Under the pieces are notes generated by a model. The model saw nothing but the letters and a program-made list of their open reading frames with translations. It made no database searches and was not told the DNA's origin. From Candidatus Oxydemutatoraceae bacterium (GTDB lineage Bacteria; Pseudomonadota; Gammaproteobacteria; Poriferisulfidales; Oxydemutatoraceae), in assembly GCA_965218975.1 (NCBI GenBank), contig OZ244717.1, positions 338,347 to 402,346 on the forward strand: a stretch of 64,000 nt of DNA, written 5' to 3'. This document shows, piece by piece, positions 1,087 to 29,669 of the stretch. Each line of letters begins with the position of its first letter. Within the stretch, counting starts at the first letter, position 1. The translations under genes and the position numbers were made by a program.

Positions 1087-3839
1087 ATGAAAGATAGTTT
1101 TGAGAAAGATTTCAAAGAGCTGACAGGATTTCCTCCGTTCAAATGGCAGAAACGCCTTTTCTATGAGCGTTTCGCCAAAGGTGATATTCCTTCTGCGCTC
1201 GACATCCCGACAGGTCTCGGCAAGACTTCGGTGATGGTAATCTGGTATTTGGCCCGGAAGGCCAAAGCTGCATTGCCCCGGCGTTTAGTTTATGTGGTTG
1301 ATAGACGGGCAGTCGTTGATCAGGCGACAACTGTGGCCGATGAAATTAAAAAGAAATCAAAGGACGATACATTGCGGGTGAGCACGCTGCGCGGTCAACA
1401 TGTGGATAATCGGGAATGGCTTGCGGACCCAGTTGCGCCGGCCATTATTGTCGGCACCGTTGATATGATCGGCTCACGGCTGTTGTTCTCGGGTTACGGC
1501 GTATCACGCAAGATGCGCCCCTATCATGCGGGTCTGCTCGGAGCGGATACGCTCGTCGTGCTTGACGAAGCGCATTTGGTTCCACCGTTTGAAAAACTTC
1601 TCGAAAAGATTGCGAAGATTGTGAACGGAGCCAACGTATTCGGTCCGCGCGAGCAAGAGGACCGAAGAATAACGCCGCCCCTCAAGTTGCTTTCGCTGTC
1701 GGCTACAGGACGTGAAAATGATCAAAGCAGAAAAGGAGGATTCTCGCTTCTTCGCGAAGACTGGGAAGATGAAGTTGTTAAGAAGCGTCTGGAAGCACGA
1801 AAACGACTTACGATCCAAGTGCTCAATGATGCAGAAAAGCTGGCACAGGAGCTGGCCGAGCGGGCATGGAAACTTGGAGAGAAGCCGGCACGTGTGCTCG
1901 TTTATTGCGATCGCAGAAAAGATGCTGTGGAAGTAAAGAATAAAATTGATAAGAAGTTTGAGAAAGGAACCCCCGAACCTGTTTCCGAACTTTTGGTCGG
2001 CGGGCGGCGTGTGTTTGAGCGGCAAACGCTTTCTGACTGGTTGAAAGAGTACGGTTTCTTTGGCGATGCCAAAGGATCGCCAAAGCAGCCGACTTTTCTG
2101 ATTGCGACCTCAGCCGGTGAAGTAGGCGTTGATCTTGATGCGGACCACATGGTGTGCGATTTGGTCGAGTGGGAGCGCATGGTGCAGCGCCTTGGCCGTG
2201 TGAATCGGCGCGGCAACGGGGATGCCCGTATTGAGGTCGTTGCCGCGCCCCGCACGGAAAAGCCCAGCAATCAAAAAAAGGCCAAAGAGTGGGAGAAACT
2301 CTTGGCCTGTTTCCGCAAGCCGCTGGACAGCCTGCGTTGTGTCGGCGTACAGGACGAACGGGACGCGAGCCCGGGTGCGCTCCTGGAACTCAAAGAACGC
2401 GCGGAAAATCATTCGGAACTACGAAACGCGATTGAAGCGGCAACAACACCGGTCCCGTTGCGGCCGGCATTGACTCGTGCCCTCGTTGATGCGTGGTCTA
2501 TGACCTCGTTGGACGAGCATACGGGGCGACCGGACGATATTCAGCCGTGGCTGCGCGGATGGGAGGAAGATCCACAACCGCAAACTACGGTTGTCTGGCG
2601 CAAGTATCTGCCGGTACGCGCAAATGGGACCGAGACGGAGGCAACGAAGAAAGAAATTGAAGCATTTTTTGAAGCAGCGCCTCCGCATACGAGCGAGAAA
2701 CTTGAAATCGAGACTGGTAAAATTGTTGGATGGTTTTCCGAACGTGCCGAGAAACAATTCCAAATAAAGAAAACCGTCGACTCGGCGGCAGAACCAAGCG
2801 AATCCGACGACAACTCCATCGCAGATATTCAACCGTTACTGAAGAAAGATATTTGTGCCTATGTCCTGTCGCCTGCTCACGATTTGCTCTCTATACTTAA
2901 AGGGCATGACTGCGATAATAATACGAAGGTTAAAGAATACATTCTTCCCGGTTCCACGCTCATAGTGGACGCGCGCTTTGGTGGTCTTTCAGAAGAAGGG
3001 ATGCTTGCAGAAGAGGGGATGCTTGATGAGAATGCTAGCGGTCCGCCGCGCACGATTGACGACGATGAAAATTGGCTGCCTGACGATGGAGAGGGCAAGC
3101 CAACCATAAGGTTCCGTGTGCGACACGTTACTGGCGTTACTGAAAGTGACAGCACCGAGTCAAAACCAGACTCAGGTTGGCGGGAGCGGCTGAGGTTTGA
3201 TCTTAAACGTAGCGAGGAAGGCGAAGCTACCAAGTGGCTGCTCGTTGAGAAATGGCGCGACGACTCCGAAACCGGGGACGACCGTTCCATAGGTAGGTTG
3301 CAAGAATTGTGTGAGCATCACGCCTGGACGGAAGCCAAGGCGCGTAAAATAGCCAACGCTTTAGATCTGCCTGACTCCCACATTGAATTGCTAGCCGTTG
3401 CGGCACGACTGCACGATAAAGGAAAGCAACACTCATTGTGGCAACGGGCTGCCAAGGCCCCGCAGGACGGTAAAATTTATGCAAAGACGGATAAACGGAT
3501 GAATGTTAATTTGCTGAATAAATATCGTCATGAATTCGGCTCGCTTCCGTTCGCTAAAGAAGATGCAGATTTTAAGGCTTTGCCTGCTGACTTGCAGGAA
3601 CTTTCTCTGCATTTGATCGCGACACATCACGGTTATGCGCGGCCTGTCATTTCTACTAGCGGTTGCGACGACCCTCCTTCTGTTCTTGAAAAACGCGCCC
3701 GCGATGTTGCACTACGATTCGCCCAAATGCAGAAGCGATGGGGGCCTTGGGGATTGGCCTGGTGGGAATCATTGTTGCGCGCCGCAGACCAACAAGCCTC
3801 ACGCGATAATGATGACCCCAATCGAAAGAAGGATAACTA

Positions 3840-3840
<1 letters not shown>
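1087..3840 (+). CDS. cas3: Cas3 helicase-nuclease of type I-G/I-U (SF2 helicase N-terminal, HD nuclease C-terminal)
   Basis: 917 aa. Helicase motifs are I 'DIPTGLGKTS', II 'VLDEAH', V 'TSAGEVGVDLD' and VI 'QRLGRVNRRG'. The C-terminal HD domain shows 'LHDKGK' and 'IATHHGY'. The HD-at-C-terminus arrangement is the subtype I-G hallmark. Confidence 0.9.
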
Positions 3841-5814
<1,974 letters not shown>

Positions 5815-5846
5815 CAAGAATCTCATTTAAGTTTCTTGAGTTAACT

Positions 5847-8036
5847 ATGAATCGGACACTTCTCCTCTCGGCTTATTTTCATGACGGTCGCTATCACGGT
5901 GAATGTGGGCATGGCAGCAGCGAGTGGCCTCCAGCACCGGCGAGACTATTTCAGGCGCTGGTTGCCGGTGCCGCAAGAGGTGCCGAATTAGCTGGCAGGG
6001 ACGAAACGGCGCTTGAATGGCTTGAGAAGCTTGGAGCACCGGTGATTGCCGCACCAACCGTTCGCCGGGGCCAACTCTACAAAATCTATGTGCCGAATAA
6101 CGATCTCGACGCGGTCGGCGGTGACCCGAGGAAAATCAACCAGATTCGAGTCGGGAAGTACGTACATCCACATATTTTCGATGCGAGAATACCACTACTC
6201 TTCGTCTGGACATTCAATAGCGGTGCATTCAGCGAAGATCATGCTCAAGCCGTCTGCCAAATCGCGGAGCAACTCTATCAATTGGGGCGAGGCATTGACA
6301 TGGCTTGGGCTTCGGCAGAGCTTCTGGACGCAGGCGAAGTTGAAACACGCCTCAATCGTCATGGCGGTGTTGTGTATCGGCCGAGCAAAGCTGGAGTCGG
6401 CAAGATGTTGTTGTTCTGTCCAAAGAAAGGATCATTTGCGAGCCTCAAAGAGCGATACGATGCGAACAGGAAACGCTTCACCTATATAAGAAAGGGTAGG
6501 GGGTTTCAGCAACTTTTCTCTCAGCCACCTAAGCCACGGTTTGCCAGGGTCGCGTATAACGCTCCACCTCAGCGTTTTCTATTTGAGCTACGTGCAGCTA
6601 CGCACAATGAATCTTTTGTGACATGGCCATCCGCTCGAACGGTTGAGCTCGTTGTAGCTTTGCGGGATAAAGCAGCTGATAAATTGAAAGACAAACTACC
6701 CGAAGAGGCTGGAAAGATTGACCGCGTATTTATAGGCTGTGAGGCAACGGAGGCAGACAAAGCTGCCCGGATACGGATTTTACCGCTTCCTTCTATTGGT
6801 CATATCCATGCGGATCGTGCGATTCGCCGGGTACTGGTTGAAGTACCGCCAAATTGCCCGCTACGCTCGGATGACGTAGCTTGGACATTTTCCGGCCTTC
6901 CTGAGGTTGACCGAACGACCAGAGAAATCCTATGGAATCTTGTGCAGACACAAGAACGGATGATGCTCAAACACTATGGAATTAATAGCAGTAAACAACA
7001 GAGCTTCCGTGTCTGGCATACGGTTACTCCCGCGGCTCTGCCGGTCATGCGGACAGGACGCAGAAATTCCGGAGCCAAACGTGTTGCAAGGGAAGCGAAA
7101 GTAACTCGCGCTGTTATGCAAGCGCTACGTCATGCCGGAGTGACAGAACCGGTAGAGTCTGTTCGCGTGCAACGCGAACCGTTTGATCGCAATGGTTCCC
7201 GGGCAGAAGAGTTTGCGATACCCGAGCGATTTGTCGCACGTGGTCTACATCACGTGGAGATTACTTTTGCGCGAGCCATACGCGGTCCTCTTATTATCGG
7301 GAACGGCCGCTATCTTGGGCTAGGGCTGATGGCGCCGCGAGAGATCGTCGTGCGTGACGCGCTGGCTTTTCCAATAACGCCAAATATCGCTGTCGCCGAT
7401 ACTGCGCTGTTGTTACGTTCGGTCAGGCGCGCATTGATGGCATTGTCGCGAGACGGTGCTAATGGGCATGTCCCTCGACTTTTCTCCGGGCATGAGCCCG
7501 ATGGCGCACCGGCAAAATCCGGTGGACATGATCATATTTTTCTTGCCGCGGATGACGTTGACAGAGACGGACTCATTGAGCGGTTGATTGTTGCTGCGCC
7601 ATGGGTTTGCGACCACACCACCAAGGAAACTCTTAAGGATCGCACTTGCTTTGATAGAGTATCCAGGCAGTTAACCAACGTTCGAGCCGGCAGACTCGGC
7701 ATTCTTACTATTGGTCCCGCACAGACTCTGACGGTCGGCGACCCACTTGTCGGGCCTGCCTGCGTATGGGAAAGTCGTAGCCCTTATCGCCCGACACGCC
7801 ATGCCGGGCGAGGCAAAGATTTAGATGCTGCTGTCGCACGCGACATAATCGCCGAATGCGAACGTCGCGGCTTGCCTAAGCCTGAAGTCGAATTGTTAGA
7901 GCTCAACGCCGGTCCAAACGGCGGCAATCTAACTGCTCGCGCACGTCTTCGTTTTGCTGTAGCAGTTACGAAACCGATCATGCTCGGATGTGACAGCCAC
8001 AGAGGCGGAGGCCTTTTTTCCGCCGTGAGCGGATAA
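5847..8036 (+). CDS. csb2: Cas5-Cas6 fusion (Csb2-like), unusually long at ~730 aa
   Basis: There are two RAMP glycine-rich loops, internal 'IRGPLIIGNGRYLGLGLMAP' and C-terminal 'GCDSHRGGGLFSAVSG'. The N-terminal 'EWPPAPARLFQALVAG' motif is present. The listed TTG start at 5811 overlaps the cas7 stop, and the ATG at 5847 is preferred. Confidence 0.6.
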   Translation: MNRTLLLSAYFHDGRYHGECGHGSSEWPPAPARLFQALVAGAARGAELAGRDETALEWLEKLGAPVIAAPTVRRGQLYKIYVPNNDLDAVGGDPRKINQIRVGKYVHPHIFDARIPLLFVWTFNSGAFSEDHAQAVCQIAEQLYQLGRGIDMAWASAELLDAGEVETRLNRHGGVVYRPSKAGVGKMLLFCPKKGSFASLKERYDANRKRFTYIRKGRGFQQLFSQPPKPRFARVAYNAPPQRFLFELRAATHNESFVTWPSARTVELVVALRDKAADKLKDKLPEEAGKIDRVFIGCEATEADKAARIRILPLPSIGHIHADRAIRRVLVEVPPNCPLRSDDVAWTFSGLPEVDRTTREILWNLVQTQERMMLKHYGINSSKQQSFRVWHTVTPAALPVMRTGRRNSGAKRVAREAKVTRAVMQALRHAGVTEPVESVRVQREPFDRNGSRAEEFAIPERFVARGLHHVEITFARAIRGPLIIGNGRYLGLGLMAPREIVVRDALAFPITPNIAVADTALLLRSVRRALMALSRDGANGHVPRLFSGHEPDGAPAKSGGHDHIFLAADDVDRDGLIERLIVAAPWVCDHTTKETLKDRTCFDRVSRQLTNVRAGRLGILTIGPAQTLTVGDPLVGPACVWESRSPYRPTRHAGRGKDLDAAVARDIIAECERRGLPKPEVELLELNAGPNGGNLTARARLRFAVAVTKPIMLGCDSHRGGGLFSAVSG

Positions 8037-8521
8037 GCGCATAGAACTGTTGCCGAGACGAGCGTGTGAACACCTGCTATGGTGGCGCCCTAATTTGATT
8101 TTCCCTTTACAGGTTCCAAAACCCCTTTTGGCTATAATAGATACTATTATTAACGTATTAACGGCATCCTCGCGAGGACGATTATGGTCGGAGCTATCAA
8201 GCTCGGATCAGTTGGTTATGGACGCAACCAAGTAAACCGGAGTGTTTTTGTCGTTTGCCACCGAAACAGACTGATCATTGGACAACAATCGGAAAATCTG
8301 GTGAAAAAATATTGATTTACCAACAGGATATTGTGAAATATATACTAATTAGATTAGAAGAGGGGAATTTCGGCAATTCTTATCTAGTATCGGCTCGGGC
8401 GAAAATGATTCAGAGCGATGTCTTTTACGGAGTAATGAAAAGCCTTGCGAGAAAGAAAAAAGGTTGCCGGTCACGCTATCGTGATTGGTCGAAATAAAAC
8501 CCGTCGATTGCGCTTAGCGCA

Positions 8522-10243
8522 ATGCTCATGCCAAGACAAGTGATCCAACAGGAATTACCCCTGCCTTTTCCAAAGCTTGGCGCAGACATGCCATTATTGC
8601 CGGCGCGTATGGTGAATGAGTACGAATATTGCCCGCGTCTCGCTTATCTGGAGTGGGTACAAAAAGAATGGGCAGATTCGTCGGATACCGTCGAGGGCAA
8701 GTATCGGCATCGTCGCGTCGATAGATTCGGGGGCAATTTGCCGGACCCGGAGCAGGTGGCGGCAGACGAAACATTTCACGCGCGTTCGATTACTTTGTCC
8801 TCGAATCAACTCGGGGTTATTGCAAAACTTGATTTGGTGGAAGGGGAAGGCAATGCCGTTATCCCTGTAGATTATAAAAAGGGGAAACGCCCCCATGTGG
8901 CACGAGGTGCATACGATCCCGAACGTGTTCAACTATGCCTGCAGGGCATGTTGTTGGAAGAGCACGGTTATGAATGTGCGGAGGGGATCTTGTATTACGC
9001 GGAATCGAAGGAACGGATACGTGTGATCTTTGATAAAGAATTGAAAAACAAAACCCTGTCCGCAGTCTCTAGCCTGCGCCTCATGGCTGCCGGCAAAAAA
9101 ATGCCGCCGCCTTTGGAAGACAGCCCTAAATGCCCGCGTTGTTCTTTGGTTGGCATCTGCCTTCCGGATGAAGTTAACTTTTTGAAGTATATGAAAACAC
9201 CGCCGAGACCTCTAAGTGTCGCGCAGGACGACAGCCTTCCGGTATATGTGCAGGCCAACCGCGCCTCTGTCAAAAAGGCAGGAGAGACTCTGGAAATCCT
9301 GGTTGAGGATAAGTTAGTCAAGAAAGCCCGTTTGCCGGAGGTTTCGCAAGTAGTCTTAATGGGCAATGTATATCTCACCACTCCCGCTTTGTGCGAACTC
9401 ATGCGCCGGGAAATTCCGATCACTTGGCATTCCTTTGGCGGCTGGTTTCTGGGGCATACCATTGGCACCGGACACAAAAATGTCGAGCTGCGCACGGCAC
9501 AGTTCAAGGCCAGTTTTGATGAACAGGTGTGTCTGACTTTGTCTAAAGGGTTCGTGCGCGCCAAGATTCAGAATTGTCGCATCATGATGCGGAGAAACTG
9601 GAAGCTGAAAGATAAGCCTGCCAGACTGTACCGTGCATTTCACCAAGATGCTAACCGGTCTGACCGTGTGTCTTCAATAACCGAATTATTGGGTGTGGAG
9701 GGTAATGCGGCAGCGCGATATTTCGGTGAATTTCAAAATTTGATCAAGCGGGAAAAGGACACGGATCAATTTATTTTTGAGTTTGAGAAGCGCAACCGTC
9801 GTCCGCCGGCAGACCCAGTCAATGCTTTATTGTCATACGCTTATAGCCTTTTAACACGTACCTGGACGGTTACCCTTACTGCGGTAGGGTTTGATGCATA
9901 CCGTGGATTTTTTCATCAGCCCCGCTATGGCCGTCCGGCGCTGGCGCTGGATATGATGGAACCCTTTCGTCCTTTGGTTGCCGATTCCACAGTGTTGATG
10001 GCAATTAACAACGGTGAAGTTCGTCCGGGCGATTTCATATCTGCGGCTGGTAGCTTCAATCTGACGCCTGCAGGAAGAAAACGGTTTATCGGAACATTTG
10101 AACGGCGACTGAGTCAGGAAATTATTCACCCGCTGTTCGGCTATAAAATCAGTTACCGCCGCCTGTTTGAGGTGCAAGCCAGACTGTTGGCTCGATTCCT
10201 TCTTGGCGAGTTGATTGAGTTTCCCCAATTTACCACGCGGTGA
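8522..10243 (+). CDS. cas1: Cas4-Cas1 fusion protein (adaptation module of type I-G)
   Basis: The N-terminal Cas4 domain shows 'YEYCPRLAYLEW' and a C-terminal Cys cluster 'CPRCSLVGICLPDE'. A Cas1 domain follows, giving 573 aa. The Cas4-Cas1 fusion is characteristic of I-G/I-U. Confidence 0.9.
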   Translation: MLMPRQVIQQELPLPFPKLGADMPLLPARMVNEYEYCPRLAYLEWVQKEWADSSDTVEGKYRHRRVDRFGGNLPDPEQVAADETFHARSITLSSNQLGVIAKLDLVEGEGNAVIPVDYKKGKRPHVARGAYDPERVQLCLQGMLLEEHGYECAEGILYYAESKERIRVIFDKELKNKTLSAVSSLRLMAAGKKMPPPLEDSPKCPRCSLVGICLPDEVNFLKYMKTPPRPLSVAQDDSLPVYVQANRASVKKAGETLEILVEDKLVKKARLPEVSQVVLMGNVYLTTPALCELMRREIPITWHSFGGWFLGHTIGTGHKNVELRTAQFKASFDEQVCLTLSKGFVRAKIQNCRIMMRRNWKLKDKPARLYRAFHQDANRSDRVSSITELLGVEGNAAARYFGEFQNLIKREKDTDQFIFEFEKRNRRPPADPVNALLSYAYSLLTRTWTVTLTAVGFDAYRGFFHQPRYGRPALALDMMEPFRPLVADSTVLMAINNGEVRPGDFISAAGSFNLTPAGRKRFIGTFERRLSQEIIHPLFGYKISYRRLFEVQARLLARFLLGELIEFPQFTTR

Positions 10244-10247
10244 GACA

Positions 10248-10538
10248 TTGGAAGAACATCTTTATGTCATTGCTTATGACATTTCCGATCAAGCAAGGGG
10301 GCGCCTGATATTCAAACTGCTGCATGGTTATGGGGAATGGTTGCAAATGTCTGTCTTTCAATGCCGGCTATCCCGTCGTCGTCATGCGGAATTGATTGCC
10401 ATGCTGGACGAAATTATCCACCACACGGAAGATCATGTTATGCTGATGGACCTGGGATTAGCGGATTCGGTTAAACCGAAAATTGTAAGTCTAGGCAAAG
10501 GTTTTCAACCGGTGGAAAGGGAACCGATTATTGTCTGA
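10248..10538 (+). CDS. cas2: Cas2
   Basis: 'EEHLYVIAYDISDQARGRLIFKLLHGYGEWLQMSVFQCRL' matches the Cas2 N-terminal beta-strand/DIS motif. The TTG at 10248 is 5 nt after the cas1 stop. The listed 10215 start would overlap cas1. Confidence 0.7.
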   Translation: MEEHLYVIAYDISDQARGRLIFKLLHGYGEWLQMSVFQCRLSRRRHAELIAMLDEIIHHTEDHVMLMDLGLADSVKPKIVSLGKGFQPVEREPIIV

Positions 10539-10614
10539 TGTTCTTCCGTTCTTCATAACTCCCGCGAGAGCCTAGGTGATGAACGTTTGTCCGGGCAGTG
10601 CTCGCATAAAAATG

Positions 10615-10690
10615 TTCTTTGACAATCAGTATCTTACAGGTGACATCTTGCAAAAAAAATACAAGAAACACGACAGTGTTATGATGCATT
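10615..10690 (+). promoter_or_regulatory. Candidate CRISPR leader promoter within the 211-bp AT-rich leader
   Basis: Consensus -35 'TTGACA' at ~10619. An extended -10-like 'TGtTATGAT' at ~10677 lies ~65 bp upstream of the first repeat. Confidence 0.25.
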
Positions 10691-10749
10691 TAGACCTCTC
10701 GAAATGGCTTTCTATAATCTTTGCCAAACAATAGGTTATGGGATGTGCT

Positions 10750-13700
10750 GTATTCCGTAGCTATATGCTACGGCCTCATTGAAGCATCTCCATTTTATAC
10801 GCGGCAGAATTACCGCGTGATGTATTCCGTAGCTATATGCTACGGCCTCATTGAAGCGATATGGCCACATTCGGCGATGAGGACGATGACATCAGTATTC
10901 CGTAGCTATATGCTACGGCCTCATTGAAGCTAGAAGTAGTGGTTTTATACCTTGATAGAAGTTTTGTTGTATTCCGTAGCTATATGCTACGGCCTCATTG
11001 AAGCCGACACTGTATGTGATCGCGAGCTACTCTGTGACACGTATTCCGTAGCTATATGCTACGGCCTCATTGAAGCGAGAATAATGAAAAGTAAGATGAA
11101 AACACCTGCTTATGTATTCCGTAGCTATATGCTACGGCCTCATTGAAGCTTTTGCAGCAAGCTGCTAAAATTATGATAACAGATTGTATTCCGTAGCTAT
11201 ATGCTACGGCCTCATTGAAGCTTCTAAGTTCGGCTTCCATCATTTGTTGAGCACCTGGTATTCCGTAGCTATATGCTACGGCCTCATTGAAGCATCTACA
11301 AGTCGCTCGCATCTCCGCACGTCATCGGCGTATTCCGTAGCTATATGCTACGGCCTCATTGAAGCAGCACCGGTAGTTTCTGTTGAAGAACTTGCTATGA
11401 AGTATTCCGTAGCTATATGCTACGGCCTCATTGAAGCCAATGCCAAAGACCTAATGCACCATGTCATTAGATGTATTCCGTAGCTATATGCTACGGCCTC
11501 ATTGAAGCATCGACCAGCCGCTCGCATTTCTGCACGTCATCGGCGTATTCCGTAGCTATATGCTACGGCCTCATTGAAGCGAGATAACCGTCAGTAATTC
11601 CGCAAAGAATTTTGTGGTATTCCGTAGCTATATGCTACGGCCTCATTGAAGCGATTACTTGGGCACAAGAAACGAAAGCAGCATATCGTATTCCGTAGCT
11701 ATATGCTACGGCCTCATTGAAGCGAATTTTCAAGCGTTTGCGTGTACCAGATATGCCGGGTATTCCGTAGCTATATGCTACGGCCTCATTGAAGCCGTAC
11801 AGGCAGTCACGCATCGGAGATCGGCATCGCGGTATTCCGTAGCTATATGCTACGGCCTCATTGAAGCGAGAGGTTAGCTGCACCTGCCGACTGGAAAGAA
11901 TCAAGTATTCCGTAGCTATATGCTACGGCCTCATTGAAGCTCGAGTTATCTTCGCGTTAGTCGGGTCAAAAAATAGTATTCCGTAGCTATATGCTACGGC
12001 CTCATTGAAGCCTGCAATTCAACCTGCAAACCGTTTTTTACAATGCGGTATTCCGTAGCTATATGCTACGGCCTCATTGAAGCTGCCGCAAGTGTCGGGT
12101 TGCCGAAGTCGTTAAATGCGTATTCCGTAGCTATATGCTACGGCCTCATTGAAGCTTTACCCCGCTCCACAATGGCCATGATTGCTGCGTAGTATTCCGT
12201 AGCTATATGCTACGGCCTCATTGAAGCTGCGGGTCGCCGACGCAAGAAAAAAGGTTGCATTAGGTATTCCGTAGCTATATGCTACGGCCTCATTGAAGCT
12301 TGGCGGGACGCAACTAAGTCGACCGAAGGGTTAGGTATTCCGTAGCTATATGCTACGGCCTCATTGAAGCTGGGCTGTACCCTGACGACTCCTGCGAATT
12401 TGATGATGTATTCCGTAGCTATATGCTACGGCCTCATTGAAGCGCGGTAAACGCTAACTCCATGTTCAGCTAATCGGCTGCGTATTCCGTAGCTATATGC
12501 TACGGCCTCATTGAAGCCTCACTGCCTTCGTTTCCTTCCAGCATAATTACAGCGTATTCCGTAGCTATATGCTACGGCCTCATTGAAGCTATATTTTTTT
12601 TCTACATCTTCCATGTTTTATCTCCGTATTCCGTAGCTATATGCTACGGCCTCATTGAAGCCCACGATTATCTTTGTGTTGCGAATGATTGCCGAGGTAT
12701 TCCGTAGCTATATGCTACGGCCTCATTGAAGCCGGTGTAAAATCATCCATCAAAATAACGGTCTTGCTGTATTCCGTAGCTATATGCTACGGCCTCATTG
12801 AAGCAAGAAATTGAACATCGGCTACAGCTATGATACCTGACGTATTCCGTAGCTATATGCTACGGCCTCATTGAAGCTGTTTTGTAGTAGTGCATTGTTA
12901 GCAGTTCGTTTGTGTATTCCGTAGCTATATGCTACGGCCTCATTGAAGCTTCTCCAATAACTGTTGGGTCAGGCACAAGGCCTGCGTATTCCGTAGCTAT
13001 ATGCTACGGCCTCATTGAAGCTAGTAAGATCATTAGTTCTGCTGTTTTGAGATTCCGGTATTCCGTAGCTATATGCTACGGCCTCATTGAAGCTGCAAGA
13101 GCTAATTGAAGGTGGAAAAAATGGCAGGTGTATTCCGTAGCTATATGCTACGGCCTCATTGAAGCAACGTTACACAGAATTAGTTGTATAGACTTATTAG
13201 GGTATTCCGTAGCTATATGCTACGGCCTCATTGAAGCCCACGATTATCTTTGTGTTGCGAATGATTGCCGAGGTATTCCGTAGCTATATGCTACGGCCTC
13301 ATTGAAGCCGGTGTAAAATCATCCATCAAAATAACGGTCTTGCTGTATTCCGTAGCTATATGCTACGGCCTCATTGAAGCTCATTGACTCGGGATATGGA
13401 CGTCCTCGATTCTTTAGTATTCCGTAGCTATATGCTACGGCCTCATTGAAGCTATGCAAAAGATACCGAAGAATACAATAATTTGAAGTATTCCGTAGCT
13501 ATATGCTACGGCCTCATTGAAGCTTTGAAGATCAATATGTATTCAATCGTTAAGTTGGGGTATTCCGTAGCTATATGCTACGGCCTCATTGAAGCACATT
13601 GGATAGTGCTGCGATTGAGCCTTTTATGAGAGGTATTCCGTAGCTATATGCTACGGCCTCATTGAAGCCCATTCTCCAAAGCTGCCGCGAGAAACCCGTT

Positions 13701-15981
13701 CCCGCGTATTCCGTAGCTATATGCTACGGCCTCATTGAAGCTCTACGGTGATCTGACCGAGCACTTCCAACTCAGCGTATTCCGTAGCTATATGCTACGG
13801 CCTCATTGAAGCTACGCAGCGGTACGGCGTCTCGGAGCCGCACACTTGGGTATTCCGTAGCTATATGCTACGGCCTCATTGAAGCGAGGCAGCTTTGTCC
13901 ATTTGCTGGAGCCGCACGCGGTATTCCGTAGCTATATGCTACGGCCTCATTGAAGCCGGTGTAAAATCATCCATCAAAATAACGGTCTTGCTGTATTCCG
14001 TAGCTATATGCTACGGCCTCATTGAAGCTCATTGACTCGGGATATGGACGTCCTCGATTCTTTAGTATTCCGTAGCTATATGCTACGGCCTCATTGAAGC
14101 TATGCAAAAGATACCGAAGAATACAATAATTTGAAGTATTCCGTAGCTATATGCTACGGCCTCATTGAAGCTTTGAAGATCAATATGTATTCAATCGTTA
14201 AGTTGGGGTATTCCGTAGCTATATGCTACGGCCTCATTGAAGCACATTGGATAGTGCTGCGATTGAGCCTTTTATGAGAGGTATTCCGTAGCTATATGCT
14301 ACGGCCTCATTGAAGCCCATTCTCCAAAGCTGCCGCGAGAAACCCGTTCCCGCGTATTCCGTAGCTATATGCTACGGCCTCATTGAAGCCTCACTGCCTT
14401 CGTTTCCTTCCAGCATAATTACAGCGTATTCCGTAGCTATATGCTACGGCCTCATTGAAGCTATATTTTTTTTCTACATCTTCCATGTTTTATCTCCGTA
14501 TTCCGTAGCTATATGCTACGGCCTCATTGAAGCGCGGATGATAATTTGTGCAATTCCCTCATTTGCCTTAAGTATTCCGTAGCTATATGCTACGGCCTCA
14601 TTGAAGCCCGGAAGTTAAAGTCCCCATGTCCGCAGTTAAAGCGGAGTATTCCGTAGCTATATGCTACGGCCTCATTGAAGCGGCTCGGCAATTTCAGTCA
14701 TCAAATCTTTATAACTCGTATTCCGTAGCTATATGCTACGGCCTCATTGAAGCATGATGGTGTTTTAGCACCGTCATGAATGATGTTAAGTATTCCGTAG
14801 CTATATGCTACGGCCTCATTGAAGCTTGTTGCAGTATTTATTTTTATCTCGCTTGTCATGTTGTATTCCGTAGCTATATGCTACGGCCTCATTGAAGCTG
14901 GTAAGCACATTCGACTCAACCATGGCTTTCCTCACGTATTCCGTAGCTATATGCTACGGCCTCATTGAAGCTGTGTGGCGGAATGTCCCTTTTGGGTATA
15001 GTTTATCCGTATTCCGTAGCTATATGCTACGGCCTCATTGAAGCAGCGAAGAAGCCGATGAGGCAGGCGTATATATAGTGTATTCCGTAGCTATATGCTA
15101 CGGCCTCATTGAAGCGACCGCTGTAACTACGACCTGTCACATTACATAATGTATTCCGTAGCTATATGCTACGGCCTCATTGAAGCGGTGCTTTACTCAC
15201 GCATTCAAGGAATCCGGCGCATGTATTCCGTAGCTATATGCTACGGCCTCATTGAAGCAAATCTCCGTTGTTGTGGTGCCGGCAAGAGCGCCGGGTATTC
15301 CGTAGCTATATGCTACGGCCTCATTGAAGCAACCTTTGCATCTGGGGATAAAAAACAGTACTGGAATGTATTCCGTAGCTATATGCTACGGCCTTATTGA
15401 AGCATTGCAAATCATCCATATACGGATAAGGAAACAAAGTATTCCGTAGCTATATGCTACGGCCTCATTGAAGCTTTGGCTTCTATTGTTCTGCGCGGTT
15501 CGGGTACGCATGTATTCCGTAGCTATATGCTACGGCCTCATTGAAGCCCAACTATTTGGTCAACACCTATCAACCCAGAAATAAGTATTCCGTAGCTATA
15601 TGCTACGGCCTCATTGAAGCGACTCAACGCTAATGACGCATACGGCAAAGCCGGATGTATTCCGTAGCTATATGCTACGGCCTCATTGAAGCGGCGTTGG
15701 GTAAATCTCAGCTAGTGCGTAAAGTGCACGTATTCCGTAGCTATATGCTACGGCCTCATTGAAGCGATTTTCTAAGTCAGGAAGCTCCAACCCGCAACAT
15801 AGGTATTCCGTAGCTATATGCTACGGCCTCATTGAAGCAAGCCGCTGTTATATCGAGTGGTCAAGGAGTGAGTGGTATTCCGTAGCTATATGCTACGGCC
15901 TCATTGAAGCTTTTCGTTATTGGGACGCAAGTCATTCCAGGAGACGTATTCCGTAGCTATATGCTACGGCCTCATTGAAGC
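10750..15981 (+). CRISPR. CRISPR array, ~73 repeats of 36 bp (GTATTCCGTAGCTATATGCTACGGCCTCATTGAAGC) with ~35-37 nt spacers
   Basis: A perfect 36-bp direct repeat recurs at ~72-73 bp periodicity, with an internal 7-bp palindrome CCGTAGC-TATAT-GCTACGG. The 3' 'ATTGAAGC' end resembles the I-C/I-G 'ATTGAAAC' handle. The leader is cas2-proximal. One repeat (15368-15403) carries a C>T variant. Confidence 0.97.
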
Positions 15982-16010: not shown

Positions 16011-16901
16011 TCAACGTTCACCACTGAATAAAGCCTCTTGAATGTCGCCTTGAATACAATTCTTCACGCCATTCGCATTTCTTTGTTTTGTATTTTTAAC
16101 AGGTTTCCTAAGTGGTTGCCCATTATGTTCAAGATACCCAAGAACTCTCCGCAAGCCAATTTCAACATGCTTTTGTGATCTTTCAATACCGATGCTTTTT
16201 CTACCTAATGTTCGTGCAACTGCATTAGTAGTAAATGCTCCTGCAAACGGGTCAAGAATTATATCTTCTTTATTTGAACTTGCTTGAACAATTCTTTGAA
16301 GAAGCGTTTCAGGTTTTTGGGATGGATGATCTTCATATTCATCCATCTTGTAACGTACTCGAGGAAAATACCAAACATTTCCTGGAACTTTTTTCGTATT
16401 ATAAATCGTTGGAATCTTTTTTCTGTAGTCAATAAGTTTACGTTTAGCCCCCGTTTTAGCTTCTATAGCAATTGTGTCAGCGTTAAAAGTGTAATTATCA
16501 AGATCTTTCACACAGAAAAGAATCGGTTCATACATGGAACCATAATATTTTTTCGCTTGCACCCCCGAACTATCATATGACCAAATAATTCTGCTAAGTA
16601 TGTTTATTCTCTTTCTCAATATAATATCTATGTAGGGCATAGCTTGGGTGCTTGTCATCACATACATAGAGCCTTGAGATGAAAGTTTATCAATACAAAG
16701 AGTTAACCATTTCTCACACCATTCAGCATACGCTTCATCAGAAGGCCATTTGTCATCAAATCCATCAAAGCGTTTCCCAATGTTGTAAGGGGGATCAGCA
16801 AATATCAAATCAATTGAATTATTAGCAATTTTATCGCGTAATACTTCTATTGCATCGCCTTGGTAAATGGCATGATTTTTTATTTCGTATTTTTTAATCA
16901 T
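16011..16901 (-). CDS. DNA methyltransferase, beta-class (motif IV 'DPPYNIG' precedes motif I 'LDPFAGAFTT'); N6-adenine or N4-cytosine
   Basis: 296 aa with both catalytic and AdoMet-binding motifs. The start codon is 4 nt downstream of the IS1595 transposase stop. Confidence 0.85.
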   Translation of the reverse strand: MIKKYEIKNHAIYQGDAIEVLRDKIANNSIDLIFADPPYNIGKRFDGFDDKWPSDEAYAEWCEKWLTLCIDKLSSQGSMYVMTSTQAMPYIDIILRKRINILSRIIWSYDSSGVQAKKYYGSMYEPILFCVKDLDNYTFNADTIAIEAKTGAKRKLIDYRKKIPTIYNTKKVPGNVWYFPRVRYKMDEYEDHPSQKPETLLQRIVQASSNKEDIILDPFAGAFTTNAVARTLGRKSIGIERSQKHVEIGLRRVLGYLEHNGQPLRKPVKNTKQRNANGVKNCIQGDIQEALFSGER

Positions 16902-16905
16902 TAAA

Positions 16906-17826
16906 TCAAGCTACCAATTGTTCATAAGTAATCGTCTTCCCAACCATGGCCTTAAAGAGATCATCAAGTCTGTCCTGTGTATCACGTTTCACATTGCCTT
17001 CATTAAGTCTGAATGTAAACTCATTTACATATTGTTGACAATGCTTCTTGCTCCAATTGTGGTAAACACCATTGAAGCCACGTTTAATCACTGACCATAC
17101 AGATTCAACTCCATTAGTATGCGCCATCCCGTTAACATATTCTCTTGCTGAATGTTTTACGCTTTCATGCTGATAATAGTCGCCTCCAATATCTTTATAA
17201 CCCTTGTGGTCATCCGTATAAATGGTGGTACCCACTTCAATGTTAGCAAGAACAGCACTATGAATAGTAGCCTTGTCTTCACCTTCAACTGGCATAGCTT
17301 TTACACGGCCTTCCCGTTCTCTCATACCCAGCACAGCCTGCTTTCCCACAGTACCGCGTCCGGCCTTGAGTTTCTTATGAGAGTGTTTATTCTTTTCAGC
17401 CCTACCAATATAGGTGGCGTCCATTTCCACTTCACCACTCAAGGCTTCAAGATTGTTGCCGCAAGCTAAACGTAGCCTATGCAGCATGTACCAGGCTGTC
17501 GGATAGCTAACGTCCAGTTCCTTGCTTAATTGCATGGCGGAAATACCTTTACGGGCGGTCATAAGCAGATACGCTGCAAATAGCCACATACGGGCATCAC
17601 GCACCCTGTTATGTTCAAGTGGGGTTTCTGTGAAAGCATTGAAATATCCGCGACAATCGCCGCACCAATAACCTTTCTTGTAGTTCTTTTGCTTGGTGAT
17701 TCTGCCGGTACAGCCGCATTTGACACATACAGGCTTAGTTCCCCATCTAAGCTGCTCAAGCTTCGGCAAAAATGTTTTCAAGGGCAATTTCATAATTGGA
17801 CTCTTTTGGCGATAGACCCCGTTCAA
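16906..17826 (-). CDS. IS1595-family (ISXO2-like) DDE transposase
   Basis: N-terminal zinc ribbon 'CVKCGCTGRITKQ...CGDCRGYF', a 'TAWYMLHRLR' helix and a DDE core 'IYTDDHKGY...HTNGVESVWSVIKRGFNGVYHNWS' are present. The start may be the second Met (17793). Confidence 0.8.
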   Translation of the reverse strand: MNGVYRQKSPIMKLPLKTFLPKLEQLRWGTKPVCVKCGCTGRITKQKNYKKGYWCGDCRGYFNAFTETPLEHNRVRDARMWLFAAYLLMTARKGISAMQLSKELDVSYPTAWYMLHRLRLACGNNLEALSGEVEMDATYIGRAEKNKHSHKKLKAGRGTVGKQAVLGMREREGRVKAMPVEGEDKATIHSAVLANIEVGTTIYTDDHKGYKDIGGDYYQHESVKHSAREYVNGMAHTNGVESVWSVIKRGFNGVYHNWSKKHCQQYVNEFTFRLNEGNVKRDTQDRLDDLFKAMVGKTITYEQLVA

Positions 17827-18298: not shown

Positions 18299-19201
18299 TC
18301 AATTCTTTCCATCTTCAGCGGCTTTGACTGCATCAACAACGTCATCAGCAAGTCGACGAAGTTCAACATATTCAAGCACTGCTAGTTCTCGAGAACCGCC
18401 GATAAAGCAAATCTCCCGGCATACATCTAGCACTTTGCCGGCAGGCGGCAGTTTGCCGCTACTTTCATTGTCGTCGGGAAGAAATCTTGTGAGACTCGCC
18501 GCCACGGCTTCTTGGACCGAAGCTATTCCAAAAACGGGATTCCTGGATACCATTGCAGATACAAACCATTCCCAGTGGGCTTTTGTTTGCCGAAGTATTT
18601 TTCCTATCCGGTCTTTCGCTATCCCGGATTGTATCTCGGCTCGCCGAACTAGCCGCTCCCGCCACCAAGCTCTCGCAAACGGACAATCAACAAGAACACT
18701 TTTGTTCCCCCGAACATGAGGCAATCCACCCAGTTGGCGTAGAACCGAACGCACGCAGTTGTCCGTTTGCTCTTTTCTTTTAGGGTTCTCGTTGGCCATT
18801 ATCCTGTCAATACGCTCTGCGCCTGTTTGTGATGCGATCCCATTACTTGCGAGGAAACTCGGTTCGATTCGACCTTCCCGAACGTGGCACATAGTGACAT
18901 GAGTCCAAAATAATGTGCTTGAGGCAATCGACAAAGAAAGGTTATTCCAGAGATCGTACATCTTGGATTCAGTGCTAGCTGGGGGATCCTTGAATTGCGC
19001 CTCGCTCATCTTGACCTGATACAGATCGGGATCAATCAAACCAGAAACCGGAATCTGCTCCATAGTTTTGATGAATGCTTCCCCGTCTCTGATCTCTTGA
19101 AGAAATGCCTCTTGTTTTTCGCTACCTTTCTCGCTAAGCAAATTCGCCCGGAATTTGGCCCACTCTTTGTCGTCAAGACATTTCCAATCAAGTTCACTCA
19201 T
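18299..19201 (-). CDS. Hypothetical protein (300 aa) in the GHKL/desulfurase operon
   Basis: Its start overlaps the upstream stop (ATGA at 19198-19201). No family recognised. Confidence 0.55.
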   Translation of the reverse strand: MSELDWKCLDDKEWAKFRANLLSEKGSEKQEAFLQEIRDGEAFIKTMEQIPVSGLIDPDLYQVKMSEAQFKDPPASTESKMYDLWNNLSLSIASSTLFWTHVTMCHVREGRIEPSFLASNGIASQTGAERIDRIMANENPKRKEQTDNCVRSVLRQLGGLPHVRGNKSVLVDCPFARAWWRERLVRRAEIQSGIAKDRIGKILRQTKAHWEWFVSAMVSRNPVFGIASVQEAVAASLTRFLPDDNESSGKLPPAGKVLDVCREICFIGGSRELAVLEYVELRRLADDVVDAVKAAEDGKN

Positions 19202-20087
19202 CTTCGTGCCTCAATGGTGGGGGTACATCATGCGGATAAAGCAGCGTTGCAGCCTCCTCAGGTCTGAAATCCGGATCTTCCCAATTACAATTAGTGCAGC
19301 CTTTCGTTTCCAGATCATTGGCAAGCGATTCTAGAGCTTTGTAACTGCACCATCCTTCTTCACTATCTCCGTCGGAATCCTTGTATTTCCGTTGCAGTGC
19401 AGAAAAGCACGAAGTCACGACATGAGTCATAATGTCCTTGCGTTTATCCGAATAGTGCCCTTTGTCTTGAAGAAAAGTATAAAGAGCTGGACCACAATGT
19501 ACTACGAAGCGGAACGTGTCTCCATCAACAGCCTCTGTATAAAATTGGCCTTGCTTTAAGCTTTCGTCCGACCAAATAGAAATGAGTCCTTGAAGACCTG
19601 ATGCCCCAAGATTAAATACCGGCCCCTGCGCAAGCCAAGCACCCTTCGGAAATATTACTTCCAAACCATTCCAGTCGGGATGTACATCATCCTTTTCAGA
19701 ATCCAGAGTACAGAATATTTCCCGGATGCATACAATTACTGGAGTGAAGTACGGAGGCTCACCAAAGTTTGTGTTATTCCAAGCAATTTCCTGGGTCGGA
19801 TCTTGAGAACACTGAAGTTCCCGATACGCCGAGCGAGGCGCGGCCAAAGAACAAGCATACCGGGCATGTTTTTGCGCAATCAGTCGCTCGACCAGACGGG
19901 CACCCGTCACCGAATGCGTTAGCAAGAAGCGGCTTTTGTCGGAACTAAACCTATGTTGAACCTGACTATGTTGAACCTGATAATTGCCATTCGGGAAGGC
20001 ATCATTGCCTTCCTCAATTGCCGGATAATTACGCGCCAGAATCGCGTTCGCCCCGGGGGCGCTCTTGGCGTTGATGTCGGTATTCAT
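19194..20087 (-). CDS. Hypothetical Cys-rich protein (297 aa) in the GHKL/desulfurase operon
   Basis: A 4-bp overlap with the upstream GHKL gene. The C-terminal 'GWCSYK...KGCTNCNWEDPD' may be a zinc-binding cluster. Confidence 0.55.
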   Translation of the reverse strand: MNTDINAKSAPGANAILARNYPAIEEGNDAFPNGNYQVQHSQVQHRFSSDKSRFLLTHSVTGARLVERLIAQKHARYACSLAAPRSAYRELQCSQDPTQEIAWNNTNFGEPPYFTPVIVCIREIFCTLDSEKDDVHPDWNGLEVIFPKGAWLAQGPVFNLGASGLQGLISIWSDESLKQGQFYTEAVDGDTFRFVVHCGPALYTFLQDKGHYSDKRKDIMTHVVTSCFSALQRKYKDSDGDSEEGWCSYKALESLANDLETKGCTNCNWEDPDFRPEEAATLLYPHDVPPPLRHEDE

Positions 20088-22051: not shown

Positions 22052-23202
22052 GCTACTGCTACTCCTTCACCAAACTGCCGTTCAAACGCAAGAGCGGCAA
22101 GCATAATATCCTCCTCTGTGGTAAACCGGCCTAGGCTAATACGGACCGCCTGAAGCGCCGACAAAGGCGGTTGTCCGAGGGCCGTTAAAACATGAGACGG
22201 TTCAACCCCTCGTGACGAACAGGCAGAACCCGTTGAAATCGCCACGCTCCCTTCAAGCCCGGCAATTACTTCATCTCCGGATATCCCCGGAAACGACACA
22301 TTTAAACTTCCCGGTACACGTTGATATTTGTGCCCGTTCAGTTGAAGCCCTGGCGCGCTTTTCTGCAGTAACTGCCATAGCCGGGAAGTCAGTTTCCTGA
22401 TACGTAACGAATCCTTTTCTGTCTCATTCAACGCAATTTCACATGCCGCACCAAAGCCAACAACGAGATGTACGGGCAAGGTGCCGGGACGTAAGCCGCG
22501 CTCCTGACCACCTCCTGTAGCAACCGGCCCGATGCGATCAAAAGTATCGTTGTGGACATAGAGGACCCCAATCCCCATCGGGCCATATACTTTGTGCGAG
22601 GATAACGACAACAGGTCGATTCCAAGCGAATCGACATCAATTCCTATTTTTCCGGCGGCTTGGGTTGCATCCGTATGCATTAACGCACCATGCTCATGGG
22701 CAATCGACGCAATCTCGGCAACCGGATGAACAACTCCAATTTCGTTATTAACCAGCATAGCGGATACTATCGCAGTCTTATCGCTGATCGCATCTTGCAT
22801 TTCGTCCATATCCATAATGCCGTCCGGATTCACCCCGATCTTGCGGATAGGAACTCCATCCAAACCCAATGCTCGAACTGTTTCCAAAACTGCCGGGTGC
22901 TCGGTAGCTACAGTAATAATCTCGTTACGGCCAGTGCTTCTCTTGATCGTGCCTCGAAGCGCAATGTTGCAGGATTCCGTTGCGCCGGAAGCAAAAATAA
23001 TTTCTTGGTCGTCTGCGCCTAACAGGGCAGCTACCTGAGCACGACCTTCAGCTACGGCCCGCGCCGCATTCCATCCATAGGCATGATGGATTGCATGGGG
23101 ATTCCCAAAACGCTCTTGCAGAAAAGGCTGCATGGCATCTCGAACCCGGGGGTCAAGCGGAGTGGTGGCCTGGTAGTCCAGATACACCGGTGCAGAAGCC
23201 AT
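22048..23202 (-). CDS. Cysteine desulfurase (class V PLP aminotransferase; IscS/NifS/DndA/SspA-like)
   Basis: PLP-lysine motif 'SSHKVYGPMGIGVLYV' and active-site Cys loop 'STGSACSS'. The likely start is 'MASAPVYLDYQATTPLD' at 23202. The longer listed ORF to 23274 overlaps the upstream gene. Confidence 0.85.
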   Translation of the reverse strand: MASAPVYLDYQATTPLDPRVRDAMQPFLQERFGNPHAIHHAYGWNAARAVAEGRAQVAALLGADDQEIIFASGATESCNIALRGTIKRSTGRNEIITVATEHPAVLETVRALGLDGVPIRKIGVNPDGIMDMDEMQDAISDKTAIVSAMLVNNEIGVVHPVAEIASIAHEHGALMHTDATQAAGKIGIDVDSLGIDLLSLSSHKVYGPMGIGVLYVHNDTFDRIGPVATGGGQERGLRPGTLPVHLVVGFGAACEIALNETEKDSLRIRKLTSRLWQLLQKSAPGLQLNGHKYQRVPGSLNVSFPGISGDEVIAGLEGSVAISTGSACSSRGVEPSHVLTALGQPPLSALQAVRISLGRFTTEEDIMLAALAFERQFGEGVAVA

Positions 23203-23206
23203 ATGT

Positions 23207-29661: not shown

Positions 29662-29669
29662 AAAACAGA

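What the first reader, a model, noticed from the sequence alone, without database searches (positions are those of the whole stretch)
12520..14535. Segmental duplications of spacer blocks inside the CRISPR array
Identical spacers recur. Spacers A and B (12521-12634) reappear at 14390-14533. Spacers C and D (12662-12770) reappear at 13238-13346, and D appears a third time at 13957. The block K-L-M-N-O (13381-13741) reappears intact at 14029-14389.

This pattern indicates repeat-mediated intra-array recombination or duplication. Ordinary adaptation never re-adds old spacers in order. It could also be an assembly artefact of a repetitive region.
Basis: seen in the sequence. Interest (0 to 1): 0.6.

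Follow-up and report, generated by a model that had tools for sequence, protein, structure and literature searches.

The report
Duplicated spacer blocks in CRISPR array
A 72-spacer type I-G CRISPR array really does contain three blocks of spacers copied exactly, with every junction inside a repeat, but this is a well-documented kind of repeat-mediated rearrangement and only its extent is unusual.

Summary
The array (10750-15981, + strand) has 73 repeats of 36 nt and 72 spacers, of which 62 are unique and 10 are extra copies. Spacer order is 1-24 | A B C D | 29-34 | C D K L M N O | 42-44 | D K L M N O | A B | 53-72. The copies are 100% identical (182, 179 and 470 bp), and identity starts and stops at repeats.

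The array belongs to a complete type I-G cas operon with a conserved leader next to cas2.

The best explanation is several rounds of repeat-mediated duplication and deletion (replication misalignment or recombination between the identical repeats). A single lineage needs at least 5 tandem-duplication and deletion events. Copy-paste events, or crossovers between diverged array alleles, need only 3.

The phenomenon is documented in the literature. In my baseline, 9 of 66 other I-G arrays also had duplicated spacers. The window ranks first: 13.9% extra copies against a maximum of 10.6%, and a 6-spacer block against a maximum of 3.

An assembly artefact cannot be excluded without reads. However, the junctions form order cycles that an assembler could not produce without chimeric reads. 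The finding is real but ordinary, so interest is low.

The parts
1087..10538 (+). Type I-G cas operon: cas3g 1087-3840, cas8g2 3840-4760, cas7g 4714-5814, csb2 (cas5/6 fusion) 5811-8036, cas4g/cas1g 8522-10243, cas2 10215-10538
   Evidence: NCBIfam hits, all above the curated cut-offs (cas8g2 only marginally, 125.3 vs 125)
10539..10749 (+). Leader between cas2 and the first repeat
   Evidence: Conserved blocks shared with the leaders of four relatives whose Cas1 is 79-86% identical. This fixes polarity: the newest spacers are at the 10750 end.
10750..15981 (+). CRISPR array: 73 repeats, 72 spacers (62 unique)
   Evidence: All 73 repeats match Rfam CRISPR-DR16 on the + strand. The repeat forms a 7-bp hairpin with 4 covarying pairs across 18 I-G repeats.
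12482..12661 (+). Block A-B, copy 1 (spacers 25-26 with their flanking repeats)
   Evidence: Exact identity 12480-12661 = 14352-14533
14354..14533 (+). Block A-B, copy 2 (spacers 51-52)
12626..12804 (+). Block C-D, copy 1 (spacers 27-28)
   Evidence: Exact identity 12626-12804 = 13202-13380
13202..13380 (+). Block C-D, copy 2 (spacers 35-36). Its D is also the first spacer of D-K..O copy 1, so C-D-K-L-M-N-O is the hub shared by two of the duplications.
13273..13741 (+). Block D-K-L-M-N-O, copy 1 (spacers 36-41)
   Evidence: Exact identity 13272-13741 = 13920-14389, 470 bp
13921..14389 (+). Block D-K-L-M-N-O, copy 2 (spacers 45-50)
12805..13201 (+). Unique spacers 29-34, separating the two C-D copies
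13742..13920 (+). Unique spacers 42-44, separating the two D-K..O copies

Best explanation
The array is a genuine type I-G CRISPR array in which contiguous repeat-spacer blocks were copied several times by Cas-independent events between its identical 36-nt repeats. The likely mechanisms are replication misalignment (template switching) or unequal recombination between sister copies, combined with deletions of parts of the duplicated units.

The result is an S-T-S layout. A block S recurs after an intervening set T of unique spacers, rather than as a clean tandem.

What is shown directly: the exact copies, the junctions inside repeats, the preserved order and orientation, and the impossibility of a history using tandem duplication alone.

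What is inferred: the molecular mechanism, the number and order of the events, and that the structure exists in cells rather than only in the assembly.

The only functional consequence expected is extra dosage of 10 crRNAs (three copies for D). That is inferred and was not tested.
For: 1. The three pairs of segments are 100% identical over 182, 179 and 470 bp. Identity begins and ends at repeat boundaries, give or take 1-2 nt of chance matching.

2. 72 of the 73 repeats are identical, so any repeat can pair with any other.

3. After removing the leader-proximal unique spacers there are no adjacent identical blocks. A budgeted search found no history with 4 or fewer events using tandem duplication, deletion and leader-end acquisition. 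It found a 5-event history: 2 duplications plus 3 deletions.

4. The same signatures occur in other I-G arrays. 9 of 66 carry duplicated spacers, as perfect tandems (for example 57 58 59 57 58 59 in L062) and as S-T-S patterns (17 18 19 20 17 18 and 46 47 48 49 46 47 in L067; 110 111 112 113 110 111 in L015).

5. Literature:
- PMC8047081: repeated blocks are interpreted as duplications, and replication misalignment is the favoured mechanism.
- PMC11472070: 3.3% of 24,090 spacers are duplication candidates, and 162 of 333 array groups contain one.
- PMC5641575: 35.6% of GBS isolates carry a duplication, adjacent or distant, sometimes combined with a deletion.

6. The junctions imply order cycles: D>29-34>C>D, D>K-O>42-44>D, and A>B>C>D>K-O>A. 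No set of duplicate-free alleles related only by leader-end acquisition and deletion can yield these junctions. An assembler could not create them without chimeric reads. This is my inference from the order.

7. The exact Cas4/Cas1 protein is recorded on a single 2,081,000-bp contig. The window also contains other resolved repeat families. Both fit a long-read assembly in which single reads span the 5.2-kb array; this is inference.
Against: - No read-level or independent-assembly confirmation exists. The repeat has no exact match in GTDB representative genomes or JGI metagenomes. The Cas1 cluster at 90% identity has one member. Exact lookups of four window proteins found no contig.
- A single-lineage history needs at least 5 events, which is less parsimonious than the 3-event alternatives.
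- The copies and repeats are all identical, so neither the direction nor the order of the events can be determined.
- The extent (13.9% extra copies, a 6-spacer block) exceeds every comparator. That could point to something beyond background slippage, or to an artefact.
Confidence: 0.68

Rival explanations
1. The array is a mosaic made by crossovers between diverged array alleles. Three non-allelic crossovers at repeats, between co-existing array variants that share older spacers, joined prefixes and suffixes. The variants could be different strains (via HGT or transformation) or different chromosome copies. The pieces would be [1-24 A B] + [C D] + [29-34 C D K-O] + [42-44 D K-O A B 53-72].
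For: It needs only 3 events, against at least 5 for a single lineage (and the decomposition of the order). Each piece is a plausible simple array derived from a common base (A B 53-72, then D K-O, then C) by ordinary leader-end acquisition. Recombination between arrays has been proposed for some internal gains in GBS (PMC5641575).
Against: Recombination between arrays was found to be rare (PMC4524480; PMC11472070). None of the postulated parental alleles is observed, because no sibling sequences exist in the collections. A generic intragenomic copy-paste model, such as an excised circle reintegrating at another repeat of a sister chromosome, is equally a 3-event history.
Confidence: 0.15
2. 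The duplications are an assembly artefact. The assembler mis-threaded a repetitive, strain-heterogeneous array, and the true array is shorter.
For: The source is most probably a metagenome-assembled contig. Its relatives are all MAGs, and arrays are hypervariable between strains. In my baseline, duplications were more frequent on contigs of at least 0.5 Mb (6 of 19) than on shorter ones (3 of 47; p=0.013). That could reflect assembler behaviour.
Against: The junction set is cyclic, so at least two order-violating junctions must exist in real molecules unless reads are chimeric (inference). A 5.2-kb array lies within single long reads if the 2.08-Mb contig is long-read (inference). The contig-size effect weakens when array length is controlled (p about 0.1). 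It is also what is expected if short-read assemblies simply cannot represent duplicated spacers. Identical phenomena are documented in isolate genomes (PMC5641575; PMC4524480).
Confidence: 0.12
3. The duplicates come from independent re-acquisition of the same protospacers by the adaptation machinery.
For: Re-sampling of related protospacers does occur in this array. Spacers 8 and 11 are two variants of one protospacer, differing at 5 of 36 positions.
Against: Blocks of 2, 2 and 6 spacers recur in the same order and are exactly identical. An identical series is not expected from repeated adaptation (PMC8047081). Only about 1% of duplicate candidates in CRISPRCasdb are classed as reacquisitions (PMC11472070).
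Confidence: 0.01
4. The duplications are Cas1-Cas2-dependent. Either a multi-unit fragment was integrated, or an integration event made its second strand attack at a distal repeat, which would duplicate the leader-proximal block around the new spacer.
For: A distal second-site attack would generate S-N-S patterns. A few comparators do have a single intervening spacer (17 18 17 in L016; 65 66 65 in L067).
Against: In the window the intervening sets are 6, 3 and 24 spacers, not 1. Duplication has been shown to be Cas1/Cas2-independent in S. thermophilus (PMC8860593). I know of no biochemical precedent (own knowledge).
Confidence: 0.03

Closest known systems
Spacer and block duplications in CRISPR arrays as catalogued by SpacerPlacer (PMC11472070) and Kupczok et al. 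2015 (PMC4524480), and reviewed by Garrett 2021 (PMC8047081)
   Same: Identical spacers recur within one array with order and orientation preserved and with breakpoints in repeats. They are attributed to replication misalignment or recombination between repeats. They violate the leader-end chronology.
   Different: Typical load is about 3% of spacers (1-11% across the species sets of PMC4524480). Here 10 of 72 (13.9%) are extra copies. They form three interlocking non-tandem duplications, one of them 6 spacers long.
Adaptation-independent repeat-spacer duplication in Streptococcus thermophilus type III-A and II-A arrays (PMC8860593)
   Same: Pre-existing spacers are copied in the same orientation, and the mechanism is assigned to homologous recombination or template slippage.
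   Different: [quoted passage not shown] Here the copies are fixed in an assembled type I-G array, and Cas independence is untested.
Streptococcus agalactiae CRISPR1 duplications (PMC5641575, citing Lopez-Sanchez 2012)
   Same: Adjacent and distant duplications of one or two spacers, sometimes coupled to a deletion, which is the S-T-S type of outcome.
   Different: That is a type II-A system in isolate genomes with small blocks. Here the system is type I-G in an uncultured gammaproteobacterial lineage, with blocks of up to 6 spacers.
Other type I-G arrays retrieved here (L067, L043, L062, L015, L016, L057, L075, L085, L010)
   Same: Same repeat family (hairpin plus GGCCTCATTGAAGC tail) and the same two patterns, perfect tandems and S-T-S.
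   Different: Comparator blocks are 1-3 spacers and at most 10.6% extra copies. No spacers are shared with the window.

Membership tests
Type I-G (formerly I-U) CRISPR-Cas locus | Cas3g helicase-nuclease | tested here: met
   TIGR02621 cas3_GSU0051, 619 bits against a cut-off of 400, full length
Type I-G (formerly I-U) CRISPR-Cas locus | Cas8g2 (Csx17), Cas7g (Csb1) and the Csb2 Cas5-Cas6 fusion | tested here: met
   TIGR04106 125.3 bits against 125 (marginal); TIGR02570 139.6 against 38; TIGR02165 360.5 against 45
Type I-G (formerly I-U) CRISPR-Cas locus | Fused Cas4g/Cas1g, plus Cas2 | tested here: met
   NF049935 817 bits against 560; TIGR01573 35.5 against 24.5
Type I-G (formerly I-U) CRISPR-Cas locus | Adjacent array with a hairpin repeat ending in the ATTGAAGC handle, and a conserved leader | tested here: met
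   Rfam CRISPR-DR16 matches all 73 repeats. The stem is 7 bp with 4 covarying and 0 broken pairs. The leader is conserved with relatives.
Repeat-mediated intra-array duplication | Identical spacers recur in the same orientation, and multi-spacer order is preserved | tested here: met
   Blocks of 2, 2 and 6 spacers, 100% identical
Repeat-mediated intra-array duplication | Breakpoints lie within the repeats | tested here: met
   Identity runs from repeat start to repeat end at all six boundaries, give or take 1-2 nt of chance matching
Repeat-mediated intra-array duplication | Simple tandem (head-to-tail) arrangement, as expected from a single slippage or unequal crossover | tested here: not met
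   No adjacent identical blocks. At least 5 events are needed with tandem duplication plus deletion. The structure is therefore multi-step or non-tandem.
Repeat-mediated intra-array duplication | Independence from Cas1-Cas2 and from RecA | not testable with these tools
   Requires genetics. Precedent exists in PMC8860593.
Repeat-mediated intra-array duplication | The structure is present in single DNA molecules (reads spanning the array) | not testable with these tools
   No reads are available and no sibling assemblies were found

The most novel reading that the evidence does not exclude
The array is a mosaic assembled by three non-allelic crossovers between co-existing, diverged array alleles of one population, or between chromosome copies in one cell. 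On this reading, recombination shuffles and concatenates immune memories between lineages, rather than merely duplicating them within one lineage. This is the most parsimonious history (3 events) and is not excluded by any result here.
Probability: 0.15. Interest if true: 0.35.

Novelty: new member of a known kind. Interest (0 to 1): 0.15.

Why it matters
The significance is modest.

The finding is a clear, extreme example showing that spacer order is not always a clean chronological record. Methods that read arrays as timelines, such as strain typing, ancestral reconstruction and orientation prediction, need to mask or model such blocks.

My small baseline hints that duplications are more visible in multi-Mb, presumably long-read, assemblies: 6 of 19 arrays against 3 of 47. 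This is not robust once array length is controlled. If it held, databases built on short-read assemblies would underestimate duplication rates.

Functionally, the only expected effect is a higher dose of a few crRNAs.

Tried and rejected
1. Looking for the same array elsewhere, to confirm the structure or determine which copies are ancestral.
- The exact repeat gave 0 hits in genome contigs and in metagenome contigs.
- Exact-protein lookups of cas3g, Cas4/Cas1 (P0001), the downstream methyltransferase and cas7g gave nothing.
- The Cas1 cluster at 90% identity has a single member.

2. The nearest relatives (Cas1 84-87% identical; L001-L006) use a different 37-nt repeat and share no spacers.

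3. Protospacer searches, to see whether the duplicated spacers target one virus.
- The whole array against INPHARED phages and PLSDB plasmids gave no match.
- IMG/VR scans with the spacer 8/11 consensus, spacer D and spacer K gave 0 hits, so I abandoned this line.
- A check of the first 20 nt of each spacer, on both strands, found no exact match elsewhere in the window, so no self-targets were seen at that stringency.

4. Pure tandem duplication is rejected, because no adjacent identical blocks exist.

5. Independent re-acquisition is rejected because of the order-preserving blocks.

6. A distal second-site integration model would produce S-N-S with one new spacer. It is rejected for the window because the intervening sets are 3, 6 and 24 spacers.

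7. My first fuzzy-regex script and my first minimum-event search timed out, and I rewrote them.

8. No comparator arrays with duplications share spacers with another assembly, so they could not be used to determine which copies are ancestral.
Full report
**What is there**

The flagged region lies inside a large CRISPR array on the + strand (10750-15981). The array has 73 copies of the 36-nt repeat GTATTCCGTAGCTATATGCTACGGCCTCATTGAAGC. Of these, 72 are identical and one has a C>T change at 15368-15403. They separate 72 spacers of 35-38 nt. All 73 repeats match Rfam CRISPR-DR16 on the + strand.

Upstream on the same strand is a complete type I-G operon:
- cas3g, 1087-3840
- cas8g2, 3840-4760
- cas7g, 4714-5814
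- csb2, 5811-8036
- cas4g/cas1g, 8522-10243
- cas2, 10215-10538

The 211 bp between cas2 and the first repeat share conserved blocks with the equivalent segment of four relatives. It is therefore the leader, and the newest spacers lie at the 10750 end.

Across 18 I-G repeats the stem of the repeat hairpin (7 bp) shows 4 covarying pairs and none broken. The 3' tail GGCCTCATTGAAGC is nearly constant.

**Checking the observation**

Labelling spacers by exact sequence gives this order:

1-24 | 25 26 27 28 | 29-34 | 27 28 37 38 39 40 41 | 42 43 44 | 28 37 38 39 40 41 | 25 26 | 53-72

The maximal exact segments are:
- 12480-12661 = 14352-14533 (182 bp)
- 12626-12804 = 13202-13380 (179 bp)
- 13272-13741 = 13920-14389 (470 bp)

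Each runs from the start of a repeat to the end of a repeat, with at most 2 nt of chance extension. The repeat finder confirms them independently.

One correction is needed: the third D is contiguous with the second K-O, so the unit is a 6-spacer block. Chance identity of 36-mers is negligible, about 5e-19 over all pairs.

**What kind of history the order implies**

I compressed the order to X A C D E C D K P D K A Z. Here X is spacers 1-24, A is 25-26, E is 29-34, K is 37-41, P is 42-44 and Z is 53-72.

No two identical blocks are adjacent. The last rearrangement therefore cannot have been a simple tandem duplication.

It found no history with 3 or 4 events. It found one with 5:
1. Start from C D K P A Z and duplicate CDKPA.
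2. Delete P from the second copy.
3. Acquire E at the leader end.
4. Duplicate ECDKPACD.
5. Delete the leading ECDKP and then the internal AC.

This search restricts reverse deletions to those that serve a later collapse. I consider that restriction harmless, but it is not a formal proof.

If a block can be copied to a non-adjacent repeat, three events suffice. That could happen through an excised circle reintegrating into a sister chromosome. Three events also suffice if prefixes and suffixes of diverged alleles are joined at repeats.

All copies and repeats are identical, so neither the direction nor the order of the events can be recovered from this sequence alone.

The middle segment C-D-K-L-M-N-O shares D with both neighbouring duplications. 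It is therefore the likely ancestral contiguity. This is inference.

**Real structure or artefact**

I could not find any other copy of this locus.
- The repeat has no exact match in GTDB representative genomes or JGI metagenomes.
- The Cas4/Cas1 protein is the only member of its 90% cluster and is recorded on one contig of 2,081,000 bp.
- Four exact-protein lookups returned nothing.

The question therefore cannot be settled without reads. Two arguments favour a real structure.

First, the junctions define cyclic orders: D before 29-34 before C before D; D before K-O before 42-44 before D; and A, B, C, D, K-O and back to A. No collection of duplicate-free alleles that differ only by leader-end acquisition and deletion contains such junctions. 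An assembler could not generate them without chimeric reads. This is inference.

Second, a multi-Mb contig that also resolves several other repeat families is most plausibly a long-read assembly. In that case single reads would span the whole 5.2-kb array. This too is inference.

I put the artefact at about 12%.

**How unusual it is**

I retrieved 80 I-G loci from GTDB representative genomes and the loci of close relatives. I then ran a simple array detector on them.

| Set of arrays | With duplicated spacers |
|---|---|
| All 66 non-redundant arrays | 9 (14%) |
| 43 arrays with at least 20 spacers | 9 (21%) |
| 19 arrays on contigs of at least 0.5 Mb | 6 (32%) |
| 47 arrays on shorter contigs | 3 (6%) |

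The contig-size difference gives Fisher p=0.013. It weakens to about 0.1 when arrays are matched for length.

The comparators show both patterns. Perfect tandems include 16 16, 57 58 59 57 58 59 and 11 11 11. The S-T-S pattern seen in the window appears as 17 18 19 20 17 18, 46 47 48 49 46 47, 110 111 112 113 110 111 and 52 53 54 52.

Extra copies make up 1.1% of the 2708 comparator spacers. The window ranks first of 67 arrays: 13.9% against 10.6% and 10.5% for the next two. It also has the largest block, 6 spacers against a maximum of 3.

The case is therefore the same in kind as the others and extreme only in degree.

**Comparison with the literature**

- Garrett's 2021 review states that repeated blocks of spacers have been taken as duplications rather than repeated adaptation since 2005. 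It proposes RecA-independent replication misalignment as the likely mechanism and notes that this is unproven (PMC8047081).
- SpacerPlacer finds that 3.3% of 24,090 spacers are duplication candidates, of which 86% are simple duplications. 162 of 333 array groups contain at least one (PMC11472070).
- Kupczok et al. report 1-11% duplicated spacers and consider duplication the commonest cause of order inversions. They find recombination between arrays to be rare (PMC4524480).
- Zhang et al. show that duplication of repeat-spacer units persists in cas1 and cas2 deletion strains and keeps orientation (PMC8860593).
- In group B Streptococcus, 35.6% of isolates carry duplications, adjacent or distant, sometimes combined with a deletion (PMC5641575).

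**Targets**

No protospacer was found for the array in INPHARED phages or PLSDB plasmids. IMG/VR scans for three spacers also found nothing. A 20-nt prefix check found no spacer matching elsewhere in the window. Whether the duplicated spacers share a target therefore remains unknown.

**Verdict**

The duplications are real in the sequence and most probably real in the organism. They are mechanistically ordinary: repeat-mediated, multi-step and Cas-independent by analogy with other systems. The phenomenon is already documented. The only notable aspects are the extent and the interlocking, non-tandem layout. The layout leaves a minority possibility that the array is a mosaic of diverged alleles. 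Interest is 0.15.

Noticed in passing
window 11294-11329 and 11509-11544: Spacers 8 and 11 are variants of the same protospacer (ATCTACAAGTCGCTCGCATCTCCGCACGTCATCGGC and ATCGACCAGCCGCTCGCATTTCTGCACGTCATCGGC, 5 mismatches in 36). They are in the same register, which suggests two acquisitions from diverged variants of one invader. An IMG/VR scan with the degenerate consensus found nothing.
   Followed up: partly
window 48-1043 (+): An ORF immediately upstream of cas3g matches only the C-terminal half of Csb2/Cas5-6g (NCBIfam positions 224-491 of 492; PADLOC Cas56g). The full csb2 lies at 5811-8036. This may be a remnant or a second effector-gene copy. In relative L004 the order is cas7-csb2-cas3-cas8, so the operon may have been rearranged.
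   Followed up: no
window 16011-17826 (-): An adenine DNA methyltransferase (PRK11524-like) and an IS1595-family transposase abut the trailer end of the array. The last repeat (15946-15981) is intact rather than degenerate, so the original trailer may have been replaced by a mobile insertion.
   Followed up: no
window 19194-24568 (-): A gene cluster with a cysteine desulfurase that matches SspA and DndA about equally (E about 1e-140), PADLOC candidate proteins PDC-M33A (20084-22051) and PDC-M33B (19194-20087), and a weak SspD-like hit (23207-24568). It may be a phosphorothioation-type or candidate defence system. Several of its ORFs have no Pfam match.
   Followed up: partly
window 27910-30455 (+) and 44845-48389 (+): More defence genes: an N6/N4 methylase plus a TdeIII-type restriction endonuclease, and a ResIII helicase followed by a DUF488 protein matching PADLOC candidate PDC-M19A (E 9e-94). 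Together with the CRISPR locus, these make the window look like a defence island.
   Followed up: no
window 26656-26951, 27629-27851, 51988-52201, 52322-52457, 54984-55119 (all +): A dispersed REP/MITE-like element of about 67-110 bp, with core CCCCAGCCCCGACATCCTTGTCGGGTCGTTCGCCGC followed by a second hairpin AAAACCGTTCGGTTTT. It occurs 11 times in 5 intergenic clusters of 2-3 tandem copies, always on the + strand. None is expected by chance, and there is no Rfam match at gathering threshold.
   Followed up: partly
window 52832-54632 (+): A 369-bp unit repeated 4.9 times in tandem at 88% identity, inside a 671-aa ORF (52746-54761) with no convincing Pfam domain. It is a repetitive protein of unknown function, flanked by the REP-like elements.
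   Followed up: no
loci L015, L043, L062, L067 (and L010, L016, L057, L075, L085): Other type I-G arrays carry duplicated spacers. Non-tandem S-T-S patterns are about as common as perfect tandems, and the perfect tandems have smaller units (1-3 spacers). This fits large tandem duplications being unstable and surviving only after partial deletion. Duplications were seen more often on contigs of at least 0.5 Mb (6 of 19 against 3 of 47), but this is not robust to array length.
   Followed up: partly
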